Assembly (NCBI GenBank): GCA_015069165.1
Contig: SVJD01000002.1
Span: 65,385 to 129,384 of the forward strand
DNA from: Oscillospiraceae bacterium
GTDB lineage: Bacteria > Bacillota > Clostridia > UBA1212 > UBA1255
Direction: 5' to 3'
Length of the DNA: 64,000 nucleotides
The notes beneath the pieces are model-generated. The model worked only from the letters and a program-made list of their open reading frames with translations, was not told the DNA's origin and made no database searches. Made by a program: the position numbers and the translations under genes. Positions 25,260 to 32,171 of this stretch are shown here, piece by piece; the stretch's first letter is position 1, and each line of letters starts with the position of its first letter.

Positions 25260-25397
25260 ATGTTTTGTCATATATGACTCTCGCTTTATGCAAATTATCT
25301 TTTAATATTATACATATAAAGGAAACATAAACGCTTGTTTTTTCTCTAAACTACAGTAGTGTAAAATATAAGAATGATTTTATACGGAGGTATTGAA

Positions 25398-26240
25398 ATG
25401 GAGAAAAAATTAACAAGAGAACACATTCAGAGTTTTTACACATGGCTGAAAACAGAAGAAAAAAGCAAAAACACAATAGAAAAGTATATTAGAGATGTAT
25501 CAGCTTTTATAAAATATTTAGGAAATGTTAGTGTTACAAAAGATAAAGTAATTGAATATAAAACAAAGTTGATTGATGAAGAATATGCCGTACGCAGTAT
25601 AAATTCTATGCTTGCATCATTAAATAGCTTATTTACCTTTCTTGGGTGGCATGATTTAAAAGTTAAATCAATAAAATTGCAAAATCAAATATATTGTTCG
25701 GAAGAAAAAGAACTTACAAAAGCCGAATATTTGCGTCTTGTAAATACAGCTAAACAAAATGGGAACAAGCGTCTGAATTTATTGATACAAACAATCTGCG
25801 CAACAGGAATACGTGTAAGTGAATTGCGATATATAACTCTTGAAGCGGTTAGAAGGGGGACAGCTGTTGTTTCTTTGAAAGGAAAAACTCGACCGGTTTT
25901 AATTATCTGTGAATTGCAAAAAAAGTTACTCCGTTACGCAACAGAACAACAAATTACGTCAGGTGCAATATTTATAACTCGAAACGGCAAACCAATGAGT
26001 CGTATTAATATTTGGAAAGAAATGAAAAACCTTTGCAAAGAAGCAGGCGTTAACCCGTGCAAAGTGTTTCCTCACAATCTAAGACATCTTTTTGCTCGTA
26101 CTTTTTATGGAATAGAAAAGGATATTGCAAAACTTGCGGATGTTCTGGGTCATAGCAGTATAAATACTACACGAATTTATATTGTTACAACCGGAGATGA
26201 ACACAGGAAAAAGTTGGAAAGTATGAGATTGATAATATGA
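25398..26240 (+). CDS. Small tyrosine site-specific recombinase (XerC/D-like), candidate invertase
   Basis: GGAGG RBS. SAM-like N-terminal domain. Catalytic signature ATGIRVSEL (Arg) ... HNLRHLFA (His-x-x-Arg) ... LGHSSINTTRIY (His, Tyr). Confidence 0.85.
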   Translation: MEKKLTREHIQSFYTWLKTEEKSKNTIEKYIRDVSAFIKYLGNVSVTKDKVIEYKTKLIDEEYAVRSINSMLASLNSLFTFLGWHDLKVKSIKLQNQIYCSEEKELTKAEYLRLVNTAKQNGNKRLNLLIQTICATGIRVSELRYITLEAVRRGTAVVSLKGKTRPVLIICELQKKLLRYATEQQITSGAIFITRNGKPMSRINIWKEMKNLCKEAGVNPCKVFPHNLRHLFARTFYGIEKDIAKLADVLGHSSINTTRIYIVTTGDEHRKKLESMRLII

Positions 26241-26265
26241 AAAAGAAAAATAAAACGATAAAAAC

Positions 26266-26287
26266 AACATAATCAATATTATGTTTC
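26266..26287. repeat. Left inverted repeat of the invertible element
   Basis: AACATAATCAATATTATGTTTC is the exact reverse complement of 26538..26559. Confidence 0.95.
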
Positions 26288-26370
26288 GGATATATATTCG
26301 AAAAAAACAAATATATCGTCTCGATGTTAAATTTTATCATAGAACAAAATAAAAATCAACAGATAAAAAA

Positions 26371-26399
26371 TTTAAAAATGAATTTTCGTAAATTATAAT
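26371..26399 (+). promoter_or_regulatory. Weaker promoter candidate on the + strand, sharing the palindromic -10
   Basis: TTTAAA (26371..26376), a 17-nt spacer, then TATAAT (26394..26399). Confidence 0.3.
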
Positions 26400-26420
26400 T
26401 TACATAAGTGAGCATGCCAA
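26392..26420 (-). promoter_or_regulatory. SigA-type promoter candidate inside the switch, currently pointing away from the surface operon
   Basis: The minus strand reads TTGGCA (26420..26415), a 17-nt spacer, then TATAAT (26397..26392). Confidence 0.45.
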
Positions 26421-26486
26421 TATAAACCTTATTATAGAGTATTTTGAGTACAAATATAACAAGGTTTATATTGTTATGCTTTTTTT
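26418..26486 (+). terminator. Hairpin plus T-run inside the switch (orientation-dependent terminator candidate)
   Basis: CAATATAAACCTT (26418..26430) pairs with AAGGTTTATATTG (26461..26473). The stem is extended by TTATA/TATAA after one mismatch. T7 at 26480..26486. Confidence 0.4.
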
Positions 26487-26537
26487 ACTGTTTTTTAGAG
26501 CGCTTTTTAACTGTGGTAAAACTTTTAAGTTTTATTT

Positions 26538-26559
26538 GAAACATAATATTGATTATGTT
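26538..26559. repeat. Right inverted repeat of the invertible element
   Basis: GAAACATAATATTGATTATGTT. With its flanks it reads GAAACATAA-TATTGA-TTATGTTTC, two 9-bp inverted arms around an asymmetric centre. Confidence 0.95.
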
Positions 26560-26597
26560 TCAAAGTGTCAAAAAATATTATACAAGGAGTGTGGATA

Positions 26598-29500
26598 ATG
26601 AAATCAAAAACAAAAAGGATTATTTCTTTATTGCTTGTGGTTATTTTGGTATGTAGTATTTTACCAATACAGACAGTTCAAGTTCAAGCGGCAGGCTTGA
26701 GTCTTCAGCAACTAAAGGACAAATTTCCACAAGATGCTTATTGGAACGGCGGTAACGTAGATAGTTATACGTGGACGCCATGTGCTTCGCATAGCAATTG
26801 TGATTATTATGGTGGGTGTAATTGTAATTCGTTTAGCAATGCGATTCAATGTCATGGCTTTGCTCTAAAATTGGGATATGATGCATTTGGCACAAACCCG
26901 AGAAATTGGTCACGAGCAGGAGCTCCATATAGTTATATTGACTCTTTAAAACCAGGCGATATTGTAACATCTGATTCTCCGTATCATACCTTTTTTGTTA
27001 TTGGTGTTACATCTTCTTCTGTAACTATAGGAGAGTGCAATTATGGTGGGAGATGCAGAATTAATTGGGGAAGAAGCATTAATAAAGCTACGATAGCTGG
27101 TTATTCTGGACTTGCAATCTATATTGCTCCTGCGACTCTCAATATAGATAATCATGTTCATTCATACACCTCAAGTGTAACCACGAATCCCACATGTACT
27201 TCTGCAGGCGTGCGTACATATAGGTGCTCTTGTGGTAGTAGCTACACTGAGAGTATTGCTGCGTTGGGTCACGATTATACCGGTGATAGATTGTATGAAA
27301 CTGCACACCCGCACCAAATTTCACAAAGGTGCGTCAGATATAGTTCTTGCGGTGGTTTTTATTGGACCGGAGAGAATTATTTTTTATCGGATTGTAGTAC
27401 TTGTTTGGCAGAAAATCCAAAACAAATACATAGTTCTCATAGTTCTGCATCACTGTCCTTAGGAGGTGCGGATTCACAAACTATATATTTTTGGTCAAGT
27501 GGCTATTATAATGGTAACTGTAGTTATCTTTGGGAAAGAAGTAATTCGAACATATTGCCCATTTGGGGAGATTGGACGGAAGATAATAAACTCCCGTTAA
27601 CTATAACAGCGAATTCTATAGGAACAACAGTGTTGACTGTATCTATAATAGATAGCGATACGGAAGCAGTTTTAAGCCGCAAGACGATAAATGTCACTGT
27701 GGGTGTATCTACTTCTTCGTTAAGTGTAAATACCTCAAACAGCGCGACAATATCTACTGCCGGAAAAATGAAGTATTATGAATACACTCCGTCAACAAGT
27801 GGTACATACGTTATTTATTCAACTGGTTCTGCGGATACAAAGGTGCATTTGTATAATGTAAGCGGAACAGAGTTGGATAGTAATGATGACGGCGGTGATA
27901 ACAGTAATTTTAGATTGGAGTACAATCTGACGGCCGGAACAAAATATATATTTGGAGTAAAATACTATAGTTCCTCAACAACGGGAACGATTCCGTTTAA
28001 GTTTGGCAATGTATACACCGTAAATTATAATGCTAATGGTGGAACCGGTGCTCCTTCTTCACAAAAAAAAGATTATGGCGCGAGTATTACATTGAGTAGT
28101 ACTTTACCAACAAGAAGTGGATATACATTTAAGGGCTGGGCTACAAGCAGTTCTGCGACAAGTGCAACATATCAGCCCGGTGACACCTATACAGCTAACT
28201 CCAGTACAACGCTTTATGCTGTTTGGAAAAAGGTGTTCTATGGAGATGTAAATCAAGACGGTGTGCTTGACAATAACGATATTCTGCGTATGAACAAGAT
28301 TCGTCTTGGCAATGTAGAGGCAACAAATTGGGAATTGTTCGCAGGAGATTTGGATGGTGATGGCACCATTACAATGGATGACATCGAATTGCTAAACGCA
28401 TTTATTCTGAGAAAAAGCACACAATTTCCGGTAGAACAGATGAAAAAAATGCTGATGATCAACACATACCCAGATAAAACGGATTATTGTATTGGAACAC
28501 AAATTAGCACAAACGGATTAAGCGTTATTTTATATTATGCAGAAACCTCCGAATGCTATTATGTGACAGAGTATTGTGATATCGTGCTTCCCTCAACAAG
28601 CAGCGCAGGCAAGAAGAATGTAGATATTTCTTTTGGAGGCTTAGAGACGCAGTATCAAATTACCGTTACATCGGAACACAGCTATACCTACAAGACCACC
28701 AAGACACCGACAACGTCTGCAACCGGTATATTGACGGGCACCTGCTCAAAATGCTCCGGTACGACTACCGTAACTTTGCCCAAATTGAATACTACCGACT
28801 ACGGCTACCAAGTCACTAAATCGGCAACCTGCACAGCCACCGGCACAGGGCGGTACACCTGGAAGACAACCACCTATGGTAGCTTCTACTTCGATATAAC
28901 GATTGCCAAGGCGGCACACAGTTGGAAAGCGGCAACCTGCACCAGTGCACAAACTTGCTCTGTTTGTGGCACGACCAGTGGTTCGGCGTTGGGGCACAGT
29001 TACAACTACAAGGCAACCAAAACGCCTACAACTTCTGCAACCGGCACACTGACGGGCACCTGCTCAAAATGCTCCGGTACGACTACCGCAACTTTGCCCA
29101 AGCTGAATACCACAGATTACAGTTATTCCGTTAGAACTGCTGCGACTTGCACCGGAGCAGGTAGTGGTCGCTATACTTGGAAGACAACAACATACGGTAG
29201 TTTCTACTTTGATGTTTCTATTTCTGCAACCGGACACAATTATTCCGGCGGCAAATGTACACGATGCGGGGCAAATGATCCGAATCATGTAATTGACCAA
29301 AATGCACCCATGATAATGGTAGATACTGTTAACGGAAAAGCCGGCGAAACGGTAAAAGTAACTGTCAGCATGAAAAACAACCCCGGTATTTGGGGTATGG
29401 ACTTGGTTGTTAACTATGACAAGACACAATTAACACTTGCAAGTGTTACAAACGGAACGGTTTTTTCTTCGTCAGAATGGACACAGGGTAATTTGTCTGG

Positions 29501-29909
29501 CGACAAATGTATTCTTTCTTACGAGGCAAGTGGTCTTGATAACATTACAACAAATGGTGTACTTGCAGCATTAGAATTTGCTGTTAATAAAAATGCAACA
29601 GTTGACAGTTTTGTAAATATTTCGCTTTCATACAATGCTGGTGACATTATTAATGTAAATTTTGATGATGTAAAAGTTGCCATTGTTCCGGGCGGAATTA
29701 ATATTGCAGATTTTGTCTATGGTGATTTGAACAGCGATGGATTGGTCAACAAGAAAGATTCCTTGTTGATGAAAATGTATCTTGCTGACAATACAACAAC
29801 CATTGATATGCAAGCTGCGGATGTGTATGTTGATGGAAACATAAATAAAAAAGATTCACTCTATCTGAAACAGTACTTAGCCGGATTAGATGTTGAATTA
29901 GGTGCTTAA
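26598..29909 (+). CDS. Secreted multidomain protein: CHAP-like papain-fold domain, Cys-rich modules, Ig-like domain, PPC, Listeria-Bacteroides repeat, dockerin, Ig-like domain, 2x106-aa repeat, cohesin, C-terminal dockerin
   Basis: AAGGAG RBS and signal peptide. QCHGF...YHTFFV...GECN (Cys-His-Glu-x-Asn). YTVNYNANGGTG...YTFKGW...LYAVWK. Dockerin Ca loops GDVNQDGVLDNND/GDLDGDGTITMDD and GDLNSDGLVNKKD/DVYVDGNINKKD. Cohesin-like GKAGETVKVTVSMKNNPGIWGMDLVVNYDK...VAIVPGGINI. Confidence 0.8.
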   Translation: MKSKTKRIISLLLVVILVCSILPIQTVQVQAAGLSLQQLKDKFPQDAYWNGGNVDSYTWTPCASHSNCDYYGGCNCNSFSNAIQCHGFALKLGYDAFGTNPRNWSRAGAPYSYIDSLKPGDIVTSDSPYHTFFVIGVTSSSVTIGECNYGGRCRINWGRSINKATIAGYSGLAIYIAPATLNIDNHVHSYTSSVTTNPTCTSAGVRTYRCSCGSSYTESIAALGHDYTGDRLYETAHPHQISQRCVRYSSCGGFYWTGENYFLSDCSTCLAENPKQIHSSHSSASLSLGGADSQTIYFWSSGYYNGNCSYLWERSNSNILPIWGDWTEDNKLPLTITANSIGTTVLTVSIIDSDTEAVLSRKTINVTVGVSTSSLSVNTSNSATISTAGKMKYYEYTPSTSGTYVIYSTGSADTKVHLYNVSGTELDSNDDGGDNSNFRLEYNLTAGTKYIFGVKYYSSSTTGTIPFKFGNVYTVNYNANGGTGAPSSQKKDYGASITLSSTLPTRSGYTFKGWATSSSATSATYQPGDTYTANSSTTLYAVWKKVFYGDVNQDGVLDNNDILRMNKIRLGNVEATNWELFAGDLDGDGTITMDDIELLNAFILRKSTQFPVEQMKKMLMINTYPDKTDYCIGTQISTNGLSVILYYAETSECYYVTEYCDIVLPSTSSAGKKNVDISFGGLETQYQITVTSEHSYTYKTTKTPTTSATGILTGTCSKCSGTTTVTLPKLNTTDYGYQVTKSATCTATGTGRYTWKTTTYGSFYFDITIAKAAHSWKAATCTSAQTCSVCGTTSGSALGHSYNYKATKTPTTSATGTLTGTCSKCSGTTTATLPKLNTTDYSYSVRTAATCTGAGSGRYTWKTTTYGSFYFDVSISATGHNYSGGKCTRCGANDPNHVIDQNAPMIMVDTVNGKAGETVKVTVSMKNNPGIWGMDLVVNYDKTQLTLASVTNGTVFSSSEWTQGNLSGDKCILSYEASGLDNITTNGVLAALEFAVNKNATVDSFVNISLSYNAGDIINVNFDDVKVAIVPGGINIADFVYGDLNSDGLVNKKDSLLMKMYLADNTTTIDMQAADVYVDGNINKKDSLYLKQYLAGLDVELGA
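28677..29290 (+). repeat. Tandem intragenic repeat (2 x 318 bp, a 106-aa Cys-rich module)
   Basis: Copies start at 28677 (HSYTYKTTKTPTTSATG...) and 28995 (HSYNYKATKTPTTSATG...). They share an identical 39-nt run (tgacgggcacctgctcaaaatgctccggtacgactaccg). Confidence 0.9.
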
Positions 29910-29924
29910 AGGAGGCAATGAAAA

Positions 29925-32171
29925 ATGAAAAAAAGGCTTTTAGCACTCATACTTTCTTTAACGATGATTTTTGCTATGAGTGCTGTCAATATGTCAGCAA
30001 CGGAAACAACAGAACACACAATTACGATTGAAAATGTTGAAGCTGAAAGCGGAGAAGATGTCGCAATCAAAGTTATGATTGAGAACAATCCGGGTATATG
30101 GGGTATGGATTTAAAAATTTCATACGATAAATCAGCATTAACTCTTACAAGTGTTGATAATGGTGATTTTTATCAAGCATCTGAATGGACAAAAGGTAAT
30201 TTGAACGCGGATGTTTATATTCTTTCTTATGAGGCGGGTGGTTTAGATAATATCACTACTAAATCCGGTACTTTAGCTATTCTTAATTTCAAAGTAAGCG
30301 ATACCGCTGTAGCTGGTGATTACGCAGTAACCGCTTCTTGTAATGATGGTGATATTATCAATGTAAGTTTTGAAAATGTTCCATTTACCATTACAGGAGG
30401 TGGAGTAACTGTTAAAGCAAAACCTGTAACTGTCACAGGCGTAACCATTGACGAAACTTTGTCTCTCAAAACTGGCGAAACAAAGACCCCGGGCTACACC
30501 GTAAACCCTGCAGAAGCTACAAACAAAGCCGTTTCGTTTAAGTCTGACAATACCGATGTTGCAACTGTAAACGAGACCACCGGTGAGGTAACCGGTATCA
30601 AGGGAGGTACTACTACCATTACAGTAACCACCGCAGACGGTAACTTTACCGATACCTGCATAGTAACTGTTGCGTGCTCTCACGCAAACAAGACCCCCGT
30701 TGCAGAAAAGTCTTCCGACTGTAAGAACAAGGGTTGGGATGCTTATGTGAAATGTGACGATTGCGGTCAGCTCTTCGCTGAAAACGGCACTACCGAGATT
30801 GCCGAAATTCCCTTTCGCCAGCTCTCTGACCAACACACCGGAGGAACCGCAACTTGTACTAAACAGGCTGTTTGTACCGTGTGTAGCCAGTCTTACGGTG
30901 CTTTGACTTCTCATGATTATACTGCTGAAACGAAGAAAGCGGAAGCATTGAAAACTGCCGGTAACTGCCGTGATTATGCTGTTTACTACTATTCATGCTC
31001 TGCTTGCGGCAAAGTGGAAGATAAAGACAGCCATACTTTCAACGGCGATAAGGTTGCAGATAATCATATCGGCGGAACCACTCTTGTAAATCAGGCTGAA
31101 GCAAATCACAAAACACAGACCAACGGTTATACCGGTGATGCTAAATGCCTCGGCTGTGGCGAAATCATTGACTATGGTGAGACGATTCCGGCGGGGGCAC
31201 ATACTCCTGCTGATATTTGGTCTACTGATGGTGAGTATCACTGGAAAGAGTGTAATGTTGTTGGCTGTGGTATTGTAATTAATAATTCAAAGATTTCTCA
31301 TAGCTCTACAGGAGCAAATGTTGCTACTTGTCAAAAAAGAGCTGTCTGTGATGTTTGTGGCGTTTCCTATGGAGAAGTGGCAGACCACGATTGGAATACA
31401 ACTGCTTGGGAAAAAGATTCTACAGGTCACTGGCACGAATGCAATACTGTTGGTTGTACAGAAAAGAATGCTTTTGAGGGACATACACCTGATCACCAAG
31501 GTAATGCTACTGAAGAGTATGCTATAAAATGTACTGTTTGTCAGTATGAAATTGAAGCTCAACTCGGTCATACCCATGTGTTTGACAAAGAAGTTGCAGA
31601 GGAACAGTATATTGCAAGTAAGGCAAACTGCACTGATGCTGCAAAATACTATAAGTCTTGCAAGTGCGGAGAAAAAGGTACAGAAACTTTTGACTTTGGT
31701 GAAAAACTCGGTCATATTGAAGGTACTGCATGGGAGAAAGATTCTACAGGTCACTGGCATAAGTGCTCTATAGCCGGCTGTGGTGTAATTATCGAAAGCA
31801 GCAAAGCATTGCACACTCCTGATCGTGAAGCGGCTACAGAGAAAGATCCGATTAAGTGTTCTGTTTGTGGCTATGTAATTGCTCCTGCTATAGGTCATTC
31901 TCACGATTATAGCGGCGAGTGGAAGTCTGATAAGGGAATGCATTGGAATGAATGTTCTTGTGGTGAGGAGGCTAACAAAGCAGCTCACAAAGACGATAAC
32001 AAGGATGGTAAGTGTGATGCTTGCGGATACAATGTAGGTATTTCTACAGTTCCGAGCAATCCTCAAACCAGTGACAGTGATATGTTTTCTCTTTGGGGCA
32101 TTTTGCTCTGTGTCAGTGCTTTGGGTGTAGTTGGAATAATTTTAATTGGCAAAAAGAAATCTTTTAGATAA
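29925..32171 (+). CDS. Cell-surface cohesin protein: signal peptide, cohesin, Big_2 Ig-like domain, long Cys/His-rich repeat region, C-terminal sorting-signal-like anchor
   Basis: GGAGG RBS 15 nt after the upstream stop. Cohesin-like GEDVAIKVMIENNPGIWGMDLKISYDK...FTITGGGVTV. Big_2-like VTGVTIDETLSLKTGETKTPGYTVNPAEATNKAVSFKSDNTDVATVN. C-terminus NPQTSDSD + hydrophobic helix + KKKSFR. Confidence 0.8.
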   Translation: MKKRLLALILSLTMIFAMSAVNMSATETTEHTITIENVEAESGEDVAIKVMIENNPGIWGMDLKISYDKSALTLTSVDNGDFYQASEWTKGNLNADVYILSYEAGGLDNITTKSGTLAILNFKVSDTAVAGDYAVTASCNDGDIINVSFENVPFTITGGGVTVKAKPVTVTGVTIDETLSLKTGETKTPGYTVNPAEATNKAVSFKSDNTDVATVNETTGEVTGIKGGTTTITVTTADGNFTDTCIVTVACSHANKTPVAEKSSDCKNKGWDAYVKCDDCGQLFAENGTTEIAEIPFRQLSDQHTGGTATCTKQAVCTVCSQSYGALTSHDYTAETKKAEALKTAGNCRDYAVYYYSCSACGKVEDKDSHTFNGDKVADNHIGGTTLVNQAEANHKTQTNGYTGDAKCLGCGEIIDYGETIPAGAHTPADIWSTDGEYHWKECNVVGCGIVINNSKISHSSTGANVATCQKRAVCDVCGVSYGEVADHDWNTTAWEKDSTGHWHECNTVGCTEKNAFEGHTPDHQGNATEEYAIKCTVCQYEIEAQLGHTHVFDKEVAEEQYIASKANCTDAAKYYKSCKCGEKGTETFDFGEKLGHIEGTAWEKDSTGHWHKCSIAGCGVIIESSKALHTPDREAATEKDPIKCSVCGYVIAPAIGHSHDYSGEWKSDKGMHWNECSCGEEANKAAHKDDNKDGKCDACGYNVGISTVPSNPQTSDSDMFSLWGILLCVSALGVVGIILIGKKKSFR

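What the first reader, a model, noticed from the sequence alone, without database searches (positions are those of the whole stretch)
26418..26486. Nested palindrome inside the switch that would act as a terminator in only one orientation
A 13-bp perfect stem, CAATATAAACCTT (26418..26430) with AAGGTTTATATTG (26461..26473), lies inside the invertible segment. It is extended by TTATA/TATAA (26432..26436 with 26455..26459) after one mismatch. On the + strand the stem is followed by T7 (26480..26486) and T6 (26491..26496). On the opposite strand the same stem is followed by GCATGCTCACTT, with no U-run. In the present orientation it therefore lies between the recombinase gene (and any + strand promoter) and the surface operon, and could stop read-through. 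After inversion it would have no U-tract and would sit upstream of the outward-facing promoter. The cwpV switch of C. difficile uses this orientation-dependent terminator logic.
Basis: inference. Interest (0 to 1): 0.6.

Follow-up and report, generated by a model that had tools for sequence, protein, structure and literature searches.

The report
One-way terminator inside invertible promoter
The palindrome is this genome's copy of a conserved hairpin-plus-T-run inside a flip-flop promoter switch of gut Clostridia. It most likely stops transcription from the neighbouring recombinase gene from reaching the surface-protein genes only when the switch is in its OFF position.

Summary
It is a 70-nt hairpin (26411-26480) whose core is the 13-bp stem. 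T7, T6 and T5 follow on the + strand and no T-run follows on the - strand.

It lies inside a ~290-bp segment bounded by two sites, ACATAAT-N4-ATTATGT. A dedicated tyrosine recombinase gene sits directly upstream and a cohesin/dockerin surface operon directly downstream.

The same module occurs in 67 of 80 related loci and in 48 of 401 Clostridia genomes. Both orientations occur: 52 loci match the window and 13 are flipped, and one near-identical pair is exactly inverted.

- **Hairpin:** it is conserved with compensatory changes (42 double-changed cells against 10 in shuffles).
- **T-run:** it is conserved on one side only (62 of 63 loci).
- **Direction:** the hairpin faces opposite to the conserved promoter (59 of 65 loci).
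- **Strict terminators:** they occur only in this sense (17 of 65 against 0 of 65).
- **No earlier stop:** no + strand terminator lies between the recombinase stop codon and the switch.

The best reading is a detachable intrinsic terminator. In the assembled OFF state it ends recombinase read-through. After inversion it is inert and lies behind the promoter.

The closest analogue is the fimE/fimS detachable terminator, more than cwpV. Function is inferred, because no RNA or read data could be obtained. All 13 contigs of this species show the OFF orientation.

The parts
25398..26240 (+). Tyrosine recombinase gene, Xer-like and dedicated to the adjacent switch. The ORF opens at 25374, but the 280-aa homologues start at 25398.
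   Evidence: Pfam gives PF00589 at 1.2e-25 plus SAM-like N-domains. The translation shows the motifs TGIRVSEL, HNLRH and GHSS..TRIY. Thousands of 280-aa relatives reach about 80% identity. It is the only copy of this family in the genome. It falls below every NCBIfam cut-off, and the best matches are XerA/XerD-like.
26241..26265 (.). A-rich spacer between the recombinase stop codon and the left site. It holds no + strand terminator.
   Evidence: Sequence. At this position 47 of 68 family loci carry a canonical - strand terminator (GCCGCC..GGCGGC plus a T-run) and 0 of 68 carry a + strand one. The window has only the T-rich - strand tract.
26266..26292 (.). Left inverted repeat. The core recombination site is ACATAAT-CAAT-ATTATGT at 26267-26284.
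   Evidence: In 66 of 67 family loci the central 4 nt differ between loci but are exactly complementary between the two sites of one locus.
26331..26359 (-). Family-conserved promoter P1, TTGATT-17-TG-A-TAAAAT. It now points toward the recombinase gene, which is the OFF state for the cargo.
   Evidence: It aligns with the family consensus TTGTAA-17-TGATATAAT. In 59 of 65 segments the best sigma-70-like match lies on this strand, typically 36-49 nt from the site.
26392..26420 (-). Second promoter-like match, TTGGCA-17-TATAAT. Its -35 overlaps the left foot of the hairpin, and it is not conserved in the family.
   Evidence: The alignment shows no counterpart in other loci.
26411..26480 (+). The nested palindrome, which is the family's 'hairpin 1'. 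It has a 6-bp foot, a mismatch, a 13-bp perfect stem, a mismatch, a 5-bp stem and an apical mini-hairpin.
   Evidence: -26.2 kcal/mol for the 70-mer. It is homologous to AAGCCTTTTC..GAAAAGGCTT of the family, with a G:C to A:U compensatory change. Covariation is shown.
26480..26508 (+). T-rich tail on the + strand only: T7 at 26480-26486, T6 at 26491-26496 and T5 at 26504-26508.
   Evidence: The one-sided T-run is conserved in 62 of 63 loci. The tail score is 4.77 against 0.53.
26533..26559 (.). Right inverted repeat. The core site is ACATAAT-ATTG-ATTATGT at 26541-26558. It is itself part of a 13-bp perfect palindrome, 26535-26547 with 26552-26564.
26584..29909 (+). RBS AAGGAG (26584-26589) and cargo gene 1 (ATG at 26598), a secreted protein with Flg_new, cohesin and dockerin domains. 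There is no room for a promoter of its own after the right site.
29925..32171 (+). Cargo gene 2, a cohesin plus Big_2 protein.

Best explanation
The palindrome is an orientation-dependent ('detachable') intrinsic terminator built into an invertible promoter cassette.

Shown by sequence: a dedicated tyrosine recombinase gene reads straight into a ~290-bp segment bounded by two ACATAAT-N4-ATTATGT sites, with no terminator of its own. The segment carries an outward-facing promoter on one strand. On the other strand, behind the promoter, it carries the long hairpin followed by T7, T6 and T5.

Inferred for the assembled orientation (OFF): the promoter fires toward the recombinase gene. RNA polymerase coming from the recombinase gene transcribes the hairpin and its U-tract and terminates at about 26481-26490. 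The surface operon, which has no promoter of its own, therefore stays silent.

Inferred for the inverted orientation (ON): recombination at the two sites would turn the promoter toward the operon. The hairpin would then lie upstream of the promoter and would be transcribed in the sense that has an A-run before it and no U-run after it. It would no longer terminate, and recombinase read-through would simply add to operon transcription.

The same element is therefore both the OFF-state insulator and the recombinase gene's only terminator in that state.
For: - **Anatomy:**
- **Fold and tail asymmetry:** the hairpin folds well in both senses, but only the + sense has a U-tract.
- **Family:** 67 of 80 loci found through the recombinase have the paired sites ~244 bp apart, starting ~30 bp after the stop codon. 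The central spacers co-vary between the two sites. The exact paired-site pattern occurs in 48 of 401 Clostridia genomes, against 0 for the control pattern.
- **Real inversion:** 52 segments share the window's orientation and 13 are flipped. In L045 and L048 the 255-nt inner segments are 97% identical over their full length in opposite orientation, with identical sites and a 98.7% identical right flank.
- **Conserved architecture:** the promoter lies on one strand. On the other lie hairpin 1 with its T-run and, in many loci, a second canonical GC-rich terminator.
- **Hairpin covariation:** 88% of cells are paired and 10 of 11 pairs have double changes. There are 42 double-changed cells against 10.3 +/- 2.7 in shuffles (0 of 500), and slid registers give 24-65% pairing. 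Several loci (L078, L050, L083, L090) have entirely different stem sequences at the same place.
- **One-sided T-run:** present in 62 of 63 loci.
- **Strict terminator scan:** 17 of 65 segments score in this sense and 0 of 65 in the other, with 11 of 1300 shuffles scoring.
- **No earlier + strand terminator:** 0 of 68 loci have one between the recombinase and the switch. In contrast, 47 of 68 have a - strand terminator there, which would stop the promoter's transcripts in the OFF state. The cassette as a whole is therefore built from one-way terminators.
- **Cargo depends on the switch:** cargo ORFs mostly start 5-50 bp after the right site, so they depend on transcription that leaves the segment.
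- **Possible compensation:** the window lacks the second terminator, and its hairpin 1 is the third strongest of 63. This is a weak trend (p = 0.05).
Against: - There is no transcript evidence.
- The hairpin is atypical for an intrinsic terminator. It has a ~24-bp AU-rich stem with about 5 G:C pairs and two mismatches, and an 18-nt apical region. The simple terminator scan did not flag it. It does not meet the Lesnik-type limits quoted in PMC2784873 (stem 4-18 bp, loop 3-10 nt).
- In many family members the first T-run starts 2-4 nt after the inner stem, which is not ideal for termination.
- The stem sequence AAGCCTTTTC/GAAAAGGCTT is more conserved than a mere terminator requires. It could also serve as a binding site.
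- All 13 independent contigs of this species carry the same orientation, so inversion is not shown for this species itself.
Confidence: 0.7

Rival explanations
1. The palindrome is a DNA-level element. It would be a dimeric protein-binding or architectural site, for example for a bending or accessory protein needed to synapse two sites only ~270 bp apart, or for a regulator of the nearby promoter. The T-runs would be incidental.
For: The stem sequence AAGCCTTTTC/GAAAAGGCTT is 80-99% conserved in most loci, although the recombinases are only 66-81% identical. In the window the left foot of the hairpin overlaps a -35-like TTGGCA. fimS needs IHF and Lrp sites inside the segment (established knowledge of fim).
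Against: The loop length varies from ~8 to ~30 nt, and some loops contain nested hairpins. Several loci have unrelated stem sequences at the same position. Compensatory changes keep the pairing. The one-sided T-run is conserved. A second, unrelated GC-rich terminator follows in the same sense in many loci. A symmetric binding site predicts none of these features.
Confidence: 0.1
2. The hairpin terminates a short + sense transcript that starts inside the segment (TTTAAA-17-TATAAT, 26371-26399). This would give a ~80-nt hairpin RNA whose genomic sense flips with the switch. Its main job would not be to block recombinase read-through.
For: A + strand promoter-like match scoring 10 of 12 lies just upstream of the hairpin. 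The family has a conserved block, AAAAGTATGATTT, that contains a -10-like TATGAT in this sense ~35 nt upstream of hairpin 1.
Against: The family block has no -35 at 16-18 nt, and the nearest candidate, TTACAA, is 19 nt away. In 59 of 65 segments the best promoter is on the other strand. The window's + strand match shares a palindromic -10 with the better - strand match. No Rfam family fits. The only hit, mir-787 at 30.9 bits against a gathering score of 57, is a chance match to a long AU hairpin. Even if this rival were true, the hairpin would still be a one-way terminator.
Confidence: 0.07
3. In this species the switch no longer flips, or flips very rarely. The hairpin is then simply the ordinary, constitutive terminator of the recombinase gene, and the orientation dependence is only a historical property of the family.
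For: All 13 independent contigs from different samples show the window's orientation. One sample carries a truncated recombinase of 223 aa. The window lacks the - strand terminator that most relatives have left of the switch.
Against: The two sites share a perfect 22-bp core with complementary spacers, and the recombinase ORF is intact with its catalytic motifs in 12 of 13 contigs. Two contigs break exactly at the right site, as assemblies do at heterogeneous inversions. Consensus assemblies show only the majority state, and 80% of family assemblies are also OFF. The cargo has no other promoter.
Confidence: 0.1

Closest known systems
E. coli fimS switch with the 'detachable' terminator of fimE (Joyce & Dorman 2002; Hinde et al. 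2005, as summarised in bioRxiv 10.1101/2022.09.20.508701)
   Same: Both are ~300-bp invertible segments bounded by inverted repeats. A tyrosine recombinase gene lies directly upstream and reads into the segment. The segment carries both the cargo promoter and a terminator for the recombinase transcript. Inversion therefore connects or disconnects the cargo from its promoter and the recombinase gene from its terminator.
   Different: The fimE terminator is Rho-dependent, while this one has the form of an intrinsic hairpin plus U-tract. fim has two recombinases and this cassette has one. The recombinase here is Xer-like, and its matches to the FimB/FimE-type invertase models reach only 27-30 bits against cut-offs of ~221. 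The recombination sites have a different sequence. Most family members add a second internal terminator and an external - strand terminator.
Clostridioides difficile cwpV switch (Emerson et al. 2009, PMC2784873)
   Same: Both are invertible segments in Clostridia upstream of a surface-protein gene. In both, an intrinsic terminator (stem-loop plus poly-U) exists in the RNA of only one orientation and keeps the gene OFF.
   Different: In cwpV the promoter is outside and upstream of the 195-bp switch, which contains no promoter. The terminator acts on the cargo's own transcript. The recombinase RecV is encoded elsewhere and serves several switches. Here the promoter is inside the segment, the terminator acts on read-through from the adjacent recombinase gene, and the recombinase is dedicated to this switch.
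Clostridia 'inverton group 139' linked to tyrosine 'invertase group 35' (PhaseFinderDC survey of the hCom2 community, PMC11892184)
   Same: These are ~250-bp intergenic invertons in Clostridia, nearly always next to a tyrosine recombinase. Reads show that they flip in culture. The sizes match this family (for example 1750639-1750893).
   Different: Identity with this family could not be verified, because the motif tables are not in the held supplements. That paper describes no internal terminators and names terminators only as future work.
Engineered recombinase-flipped asymmetric terminators ('transcriptor' logic; recalled from memory, not checked here)
   Same: A one-way terminator between inverted recombination sites gates transcription according to its orientation.
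   Different: Those devices are synthetic, use serine integrases and have no promoter in the flipped segment.

Membership tests
Tyrosine-recombinase invertible promoter switch (fimS-like kind) | An adjacent tyrosine recombinase with its catalytic motifs | tested here: met
   PF00589 at 1.2e-25. The translation shows the motifs TGIR, HNLRH and GHSS..RIY.
Tyrosine-recombinase invertible promoter switch (fimS-like kind) | Two inverted core sites with symmetric arms and an asymmetric spacer | tested here: met
   ACATAAT-CAAT-ATTATGT and ACATAAT-ATTG-ATTATGT. The spacers co-vary within each locus in 66 of 67 relatives.
Tyrosine-recombinase invertible promoter switch (fimS-like kind) | An outward-facing promoter inside the segment and a cargo gene without its own promoter | tested here: met
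   Consensus matches only. TTGATT-17-TGATAAAAT is conserved in position and strand across the family. The cargo ATG lies 39 nt after the right repeat. Promoter activity was not measured.
Tyrosine-recombinase invertible promoter switch (fimS-like kind) | Both orientations found in nature | tested here: inconclusive
   Met for the family: 13 of 65 are flipped, and L045/L048 are exactly inverted. Not met for this species: 13 of 13 contigs share one orientation. Read-level data were unavailable.
Intrinsic (Rho-independent) terminator | A stable RNA hairpin directly followed by a U-tract on the transcribed strand only | tested here: met
   The hairpin gives -26 to -29 kcal/mol, and T7 starts at the last paired base. 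The tail score is 4.77 against 0.53.
Intrinsic (Rho-independent) terminator | Canonical geometry: stem 4-18 bp with at least 4 G:C pairs and loop 3-10 nt (criteria quoted in PMC2784873) | tested here: not met
   The stem has ~24 pairs with two mismatches and about 5 G:C pairs, and the apical region is 18 nt. The consensus scan did not flag it, nor did my strict scan. Many relatives do have a canonical second terminator in the same sense.
Intrinsic (Rho-independent) terminator | RNA 3' ends in the U-tract, or reduced read-through | not testable with these tools
cwpV-type switch (terminator-only inverton) | The promoter lies outside the invertible segment, which holds no promoter | tested here: not met
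   A conserved promoter lies inside the segment. The cwpV definition comes from PMC2784873.
fimE/fimS detachable terminator | The recombinase gene reads into the segment, and its terminator lies inside and works in one orientation only | tested here: met
   Met by anatomy. No + strand terminator lies before the left site in the window or in 68 loci, and the one-way hairpin with its T-run lies inside the segment.
fimE/fimS detachable terminator | Rho dependence | not tested
   The element has the form of an intrinsic terminator. Rho involvement cannot be judged from sequence.

The most novel reading that the evidence does not exclude
The window holds one member of a portable, self-insulated phase-variation cassette that is common in gut and rumen Clostridia, present in ~12% of the species genomes sampled. 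One promoter is boxed in by up to three one-way terminators. Two lie inside the segment and face away from the promoter. One lies outside, between the recombinase gene and the left site, and faces the other way. Inversion would then do more than switch the cargo. It would also change the recombinase mRNA between a short, hairpin-ended form and a long form co-transcribed with the cargo. It would also decide whether promoter transcripts run antisense into the recombinase gene. The switch state would then feed back on its own switching rate, an intrinsic-terminator version of fimE 'orientational control'.
Probability: 0.3. Interest if true: 0.7.

Novelty: new variant of a known kind. Interest (0 to 1): 0.5.

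Why it matters
Invertible promoters are usually described as a promoter between two repeats. This case, and about 65 relatives, show that the segment also carries conserved one-way terminators behind the promoter. These make the OFF state tight even though the recombinase gene reads straight into the switch.

This explains how a compact ~1.2-kb cassette can be placed in front of very different cargo genes. The cargoes seen include surface proteins, ATPases and possible defence genes. The cassette can keep them silent without depending on the local context.

It gives a natural, intrinsic-terminator counterpart to the fimE/fimS detachable terminator. It also offers a set of natural parts (sites, recombinase, promoter, asymmetric terminators) for genetic switches in Firmicutes. 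For gut and rumen ecology, it makes phase-variable cohesin/dockerin surface display directly testable.

Tried and rejected
- **Rfam:** the only hit on the region is mir-787 on the - strand, at 30.9 bits against a gathering score of 57. I rejected it as a chance match to a long AU-rich hairpin.
- **DNA search of 60 relatives:** searching with the 421-bp switch gave only short chance matches. The family is too diverged for this, so I went through the recombinase protein instead.
- **Metagenome pattern scan:** an exact-pattern scan of metagenome contigs for the 13-bp stem pair found nothing.
- **Sequencing runs:** No read-level test of inversion and no RNA 3'-end evidence was possible.
- **Slow terminator scan:** a first, permissive RNAfold-based scan timed out and was too lax, because it counted the stems' own T's. 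I replaced it with column-based T-run counts and a strict stem/loop/T-run scan with shuffles.
- **Link to 'inverton group 139':** I tried to confirm that the family equals that group of PMC11892184 by searching its supplements for the site motif. The held files do not contain the motif.
- **Compensation idea:** a stronger hairpin 1 where the second terminator is missing is only a trend (-17.4 against -14.2 kcal/mol, p = 0.05).
- **L046 terminal repeat:** the 99-bp inverted terminal duplication in contig L046 is more likely an assembly path through the repeats than evidence of inversion.
- **Nature 2025 long-read phage paper:** it turned out to be irrelevant.

Full report
**1. The observation**

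Every string and coordinate in the finding is correct.
- The 13-bp perfect stem pairs 26418-26430 with 26461-26473.
- A 5-bp extension follows one mismatch.
- T7 lies at 26480-26486 and T6 at 26491-26496. A further T5 lies at 26504-26508.
- On the opposite strand the stem is followed by GCATGCTCACTT.

The repeat finder extends the arms to 26 nt, 26411-26436 with 26455-26480. As RNA the element folds to -29.4 kcal/mol in the + sense (z = -5.5) and -28.5 in the - sense (z = -6.4). None of 200 shuffles does as well in either sense.

The hairpin is therefore symmetric and only the tail is not. A tail score gives 4.77 against 0.53. A d'Aubenton-Carafa-type discriminant gives +5.9 against -68.8. I recalled that formula from memory, so only the contrast should be trusted.

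**2. Surroundings**

The hairpin lies in a segment bounded by inverted repeats 26266-26292 and 26533-26559. These share a 22-bp perfect core that is unique in the 1.94-Mb genome. Each repeat is a recombinase-type core site, ACATAAT-CAAT-ATTATGT on the left and ACATAAT-ATTG-ATTATGT on the right.

Upstream on the + strand is a tyrosine recombinase gene at 25398-26240 (PF00589). Its catalytic motifs are visible in the translation. It is the only member of its family in the genome.

Downstream, 39 nt after the right repeat, a cohesin/dockerin/Flg_new protein gene starts at 26598. A cohesin/Big_2 gene follows it.

Between the recombinase stop codon and the left repeat there are only 25 A-rich bases and no hairpin. 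On the - strand the segment has two promoter-like matches: TTGATT-17-TGATAAAAT (26359->26331) and TTGGCA-17-TATAAT (26420->26392).

**3. Related loci**

DNA searches found nothing useful, so I searched with the recombinase protein. It belongs to a very large family of 280-aa proteins at ~80% identity in gut and rumen Clostridia.

I took 80 loci from species-representative genomes. Of these, 67 have two ACATAAT-N4-ATTATGT sites in inverted orientation, about 244 bp apart, starting ~30 bp after the recombinase stop codon. The central 4 nt differ from locus to locus but are exactly complementary between the two sites of a locus in 66 of 67. This is what sites that must recombine with each other should show.

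Of the other 13 loci, 11 are contigs that end within ~320 bp after the recombinase gene. Assemblies typically break like this at a heterogeneous inversion.

An exact paired-site pattern occurs in 48 of 401 genomes sampled across the class and in 29 of 216 genera. A control pattern gives none.

**4. The segment really inverts**

A direction-adjusting alignment of 65 inner segments places 52 in the window's orientation and 13 in the opposite one. L045 and L048 are the clearest case. They have identical sites and a 98.7% identical right flank. Their 255-nt interiors are 97% identical over the full length, but reverse-complemented.

In the window's own species, all 13 independent contigs from different samples have the window's orientation. 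Two of them break exactly at the right repeat. Inversion is therefore shown for the family and not for this species.

**5. Architecture of the family**

Read in the window's sense, the consensus runs as follows:
- the left site, followed by a variable stretch;
- ATTATATCA, the reverse complement of the extended -10 TGATATAAT;
- 17 nt, then ACAA, the reverse complement of a TTGTAA -35;
- AAAAGTATGATTT, then ATTGTCGA;
- CAGCACAAATAAGCCTTTTC, a loop, then GAAAAGGCTTGGTTTTTTATGCCCATTTTTAG;
- in many loci GCGTTCACGA..TCGTGAGCGTTTTTTTT;
- the right site.

The window's palindrome aligns with the AAGCCTTTTC/GAAAAGGCTT hairpin. It carries a G:C to A:U double change (AAACCTT/AAGGTTT).

In 59 of 65 segments the best sigma-70-like match is on the strand opposite to the T-run sense, usually 36-49 nt from the site. 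In 42 segments it has an extended TG. The window's TTGATT-17-TGATAAAAT sits at this conserved position, 46 nt from the site. Its TTGGCA-17-TATAAT has no counterpart in relatives.

**6. Tests of the terminator idea**

(a) Structure. I tested an 11-bp helix on a fresh MAFFT alignment of 63 hairpin regions.
- 88% of cells form standard pairs.
- 10 of 11 pairs show changes on both sides.
- 42 cells are double-changed, against 10.3 +/- 2.7 in shuffles (0 of 500 reach the observed value).
- Sliding the partner by 1-3 columns drops pairing to 24-65%.
- RNAalifold recovers the same helix.
- Loop length varies from ~8 to ~30 nt, sometimes with nested hairpins.
- L078, L050, L083 and L090 have unrelated stem sequences at the same place.

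(b) Asymmetry. A T-run of at least 4 lies within 25 nt 3' of the stem in 62 of 63 loci, and a run of at least 5 in 51 of 63. An A-run of at least 4 within 15 nt 5' of the stem occurs in only 6 of 63.

(c) Strict scan. I required a perfect stem of at least 6 bp with at least 3 G:C pairs, a loop of 3-9 nt, and 5 of 6 T's. This finds a terminator in the window's sense in 17 of 65 segments and in the other sense in 0 of 65. Shuffles score in 11 of 1300.

(d) Flank. In the 60 nt between the recombinase gene and the left site, 0 of 68 loci have a + strand terminator. However, 47 of 68 have a canonical - strand one (GCCGCC..GGCGGC plus T5-7).

Together these results show three things. Recombinase transcripts must enter the segment. 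The first terminators they meet are the internal ones, and only in the orientation where the promoter faces the recombinase. In that same orientation, an external terminator stops the promoter's own transcripts before the recombinase gene.

The window lacks the external GC hairpin, having only a T-rich tract after the palindromic left site. It also lacks the second internal terminator. Its hairpin 1 is the third most stable of 63 and abuts T7 directly. The apparent compensation is only a trend (p = 0.05).

**7. Mechanism**

Shown by sequence: the gene order, the sites, the hairpin, the one-sided T-runs, their conservation and covariation, the strand relation to the promoter, and the existence of both orientations in relatives.

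Inferred for the assembled state:
- The promoter(s) fire leftward.
- Polymerases from the recombinase gene stop at about 26481-26490, with T6 and T5 as back-up.
- The operon is OFF.

Inferred after inversion (mirror coordinate x -> 52825 - x, simulated):
- The promoter moves to about 26466-26494 and reads through the right site into the operon.
- The hairpin moves to 26345-26414, upstream of the promoter.
- It is then transcribed as an A-run, a hairpin and CACUUAUG, which should not terminate.

I put this model at about 0.7.

The main weaknesses:
- The geometry is non-canonical, being long, AU-rich and with a large apical region. The simple scan did not flag it.
- The stem sequence is more conserved than a terminator alone needs.
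- This species shows a single orientation.

**8. Rivals**

- **DNA-level binding or architectural site (0.1).** The variable loops, unrelated stems, compensatory changes and conserved one-sided T-run argue against it.
- **Terminator of a short internal + sense RNA (0.07).** The family lacks a proper -35 in that sense, and the best promoters are on the other strand.
- **Fossil switch in which the hairpin is just a constitutive terminator (0.1).** The 13 of 13 contigs and one truncated recombinase allele speak for it. The perfect sites, the intact recombinase and the contig breaks at the right site speak against it.

**9. Comparison with known systems**

In cwpV the promoter is outside the switch, the segment has no promoter, and RecV is encoded elsewhere (PMC2784873).

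The nearer analogue is fimS. [quoted passage not shown] That terminator is Rho-dependent (Hinde 2005 and Joyce & Dorman 2002, as summarised in the preprint read).

A 2025 survey links ~250-bp Clostridia invertons ('group 139') to an adjacent tyrosine recombinase group and shows that they flip in culture (PMC11892184). This is probably the same family, but I could not verify it. That paper leaves terminators as future work.

Earlier notes of this scan describe the same switch family in other genomes. They agree with this reading but are not independent evidence.

**10. Verdict**

The element is best described as a detachable intrinsic terminator inside an invertible promoter cassette. This is a new variant of a known kind. 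It is moderately interesting in itself, and more so as part of a widespread, self-insulated cassette.

Noticed in passing
L017-L094, the 60 nt left of the left site; window 26241-26265: 47 of 68 family loci carry a canonical - strand terminator (GCCGCC..GGCGGC plus T5-7) between the recombinase stop codon and the left site. None carries a + strand one. It would stop promoter transcripts from running antisense into the recombinase gene in the OFF state. The window has lost the GC hairpin and keeps only a T-rich - strand tract after the palindromic site.
   Followed up: partly
window 26535-26564: The right site is embedded in a 13-bp perfect palindrome with a 4-nt spacer (TTTGAAACATAAT ATTG ATTATGTTTCAAA). 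It would form a stable hairpin in the 5' UTR of ON-state transcripts, ~20 nt before the RBS. No T-run follows it.
   Followed up: no
alignment; window about 26373-26385: A strongly conserved block, AAAAGTATGATTT (80-90% per column), lies between the promoter -35 and the hairpin. Its function is unknown. It could be an UP-like element, a regulator site, or a -10-like TATGAT in the other sense. The window has only AAAAATGAATTTT.
   Followed up: no
L095 (Logan SRR27361825), 2219-2600: A strain with a 99% identical recombinase has a mosaic switch. The left half, including the left arm of the hairpin, is ~12% diverged. The right half, with the right arm and the T-runs, is nearly identical. Directly after the right site comes a completely different cargo gene of 1355 aa. 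This suggests that cargo is exchanged at the site.
   Followed up: partly
L106 (ENA ERZ27248436), 1030-1872: In one sample the recombinase gene is broken into ORFs of 47 aa and 223 aa, while the switch is in the usual OFF orientation. This may be a naturally locked variant.
   Followed up: no
L015-L094, downstream of the right site: The cargo genes of the cassette are very diverse. They include many proteins starting MAQIAEIIKYEGDNSTFIWKHP.. The recombinase-plus-switch unit therefore looks like a portable module.
   Followed up: partly
window 25925-25950, - strand: A terminator-like hairpin with a T7 tail lies on the - strand inside the recombinase ORF (GTTGTTCTGTTGCGTAACGGAGTAAC TTTTTTT). It could end antisense transcripts from the switch promoters, or it could be a by-product of the conserved ELQKK coding sequence.
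   Followed up: no
window 26391-26400: The palindrome AATTATAATT gives TATAAT on both strands, so promoter-like matches face each other (TTGGCA-17 on the - strand and TTTAAA-17 on the + strand). Neither is conserved in the family.
   Followed up: partly
L016, L020, L025, L027-L029, L060, L063, L070, L079, L087, L104, L105: Many contigs end inside or at the edge of the switch: 11 of 80 species genomes and 2 of 13 same-species contigs. This is the usual assembly signature of a mixed-orientation inversion.
   Followed up: partly
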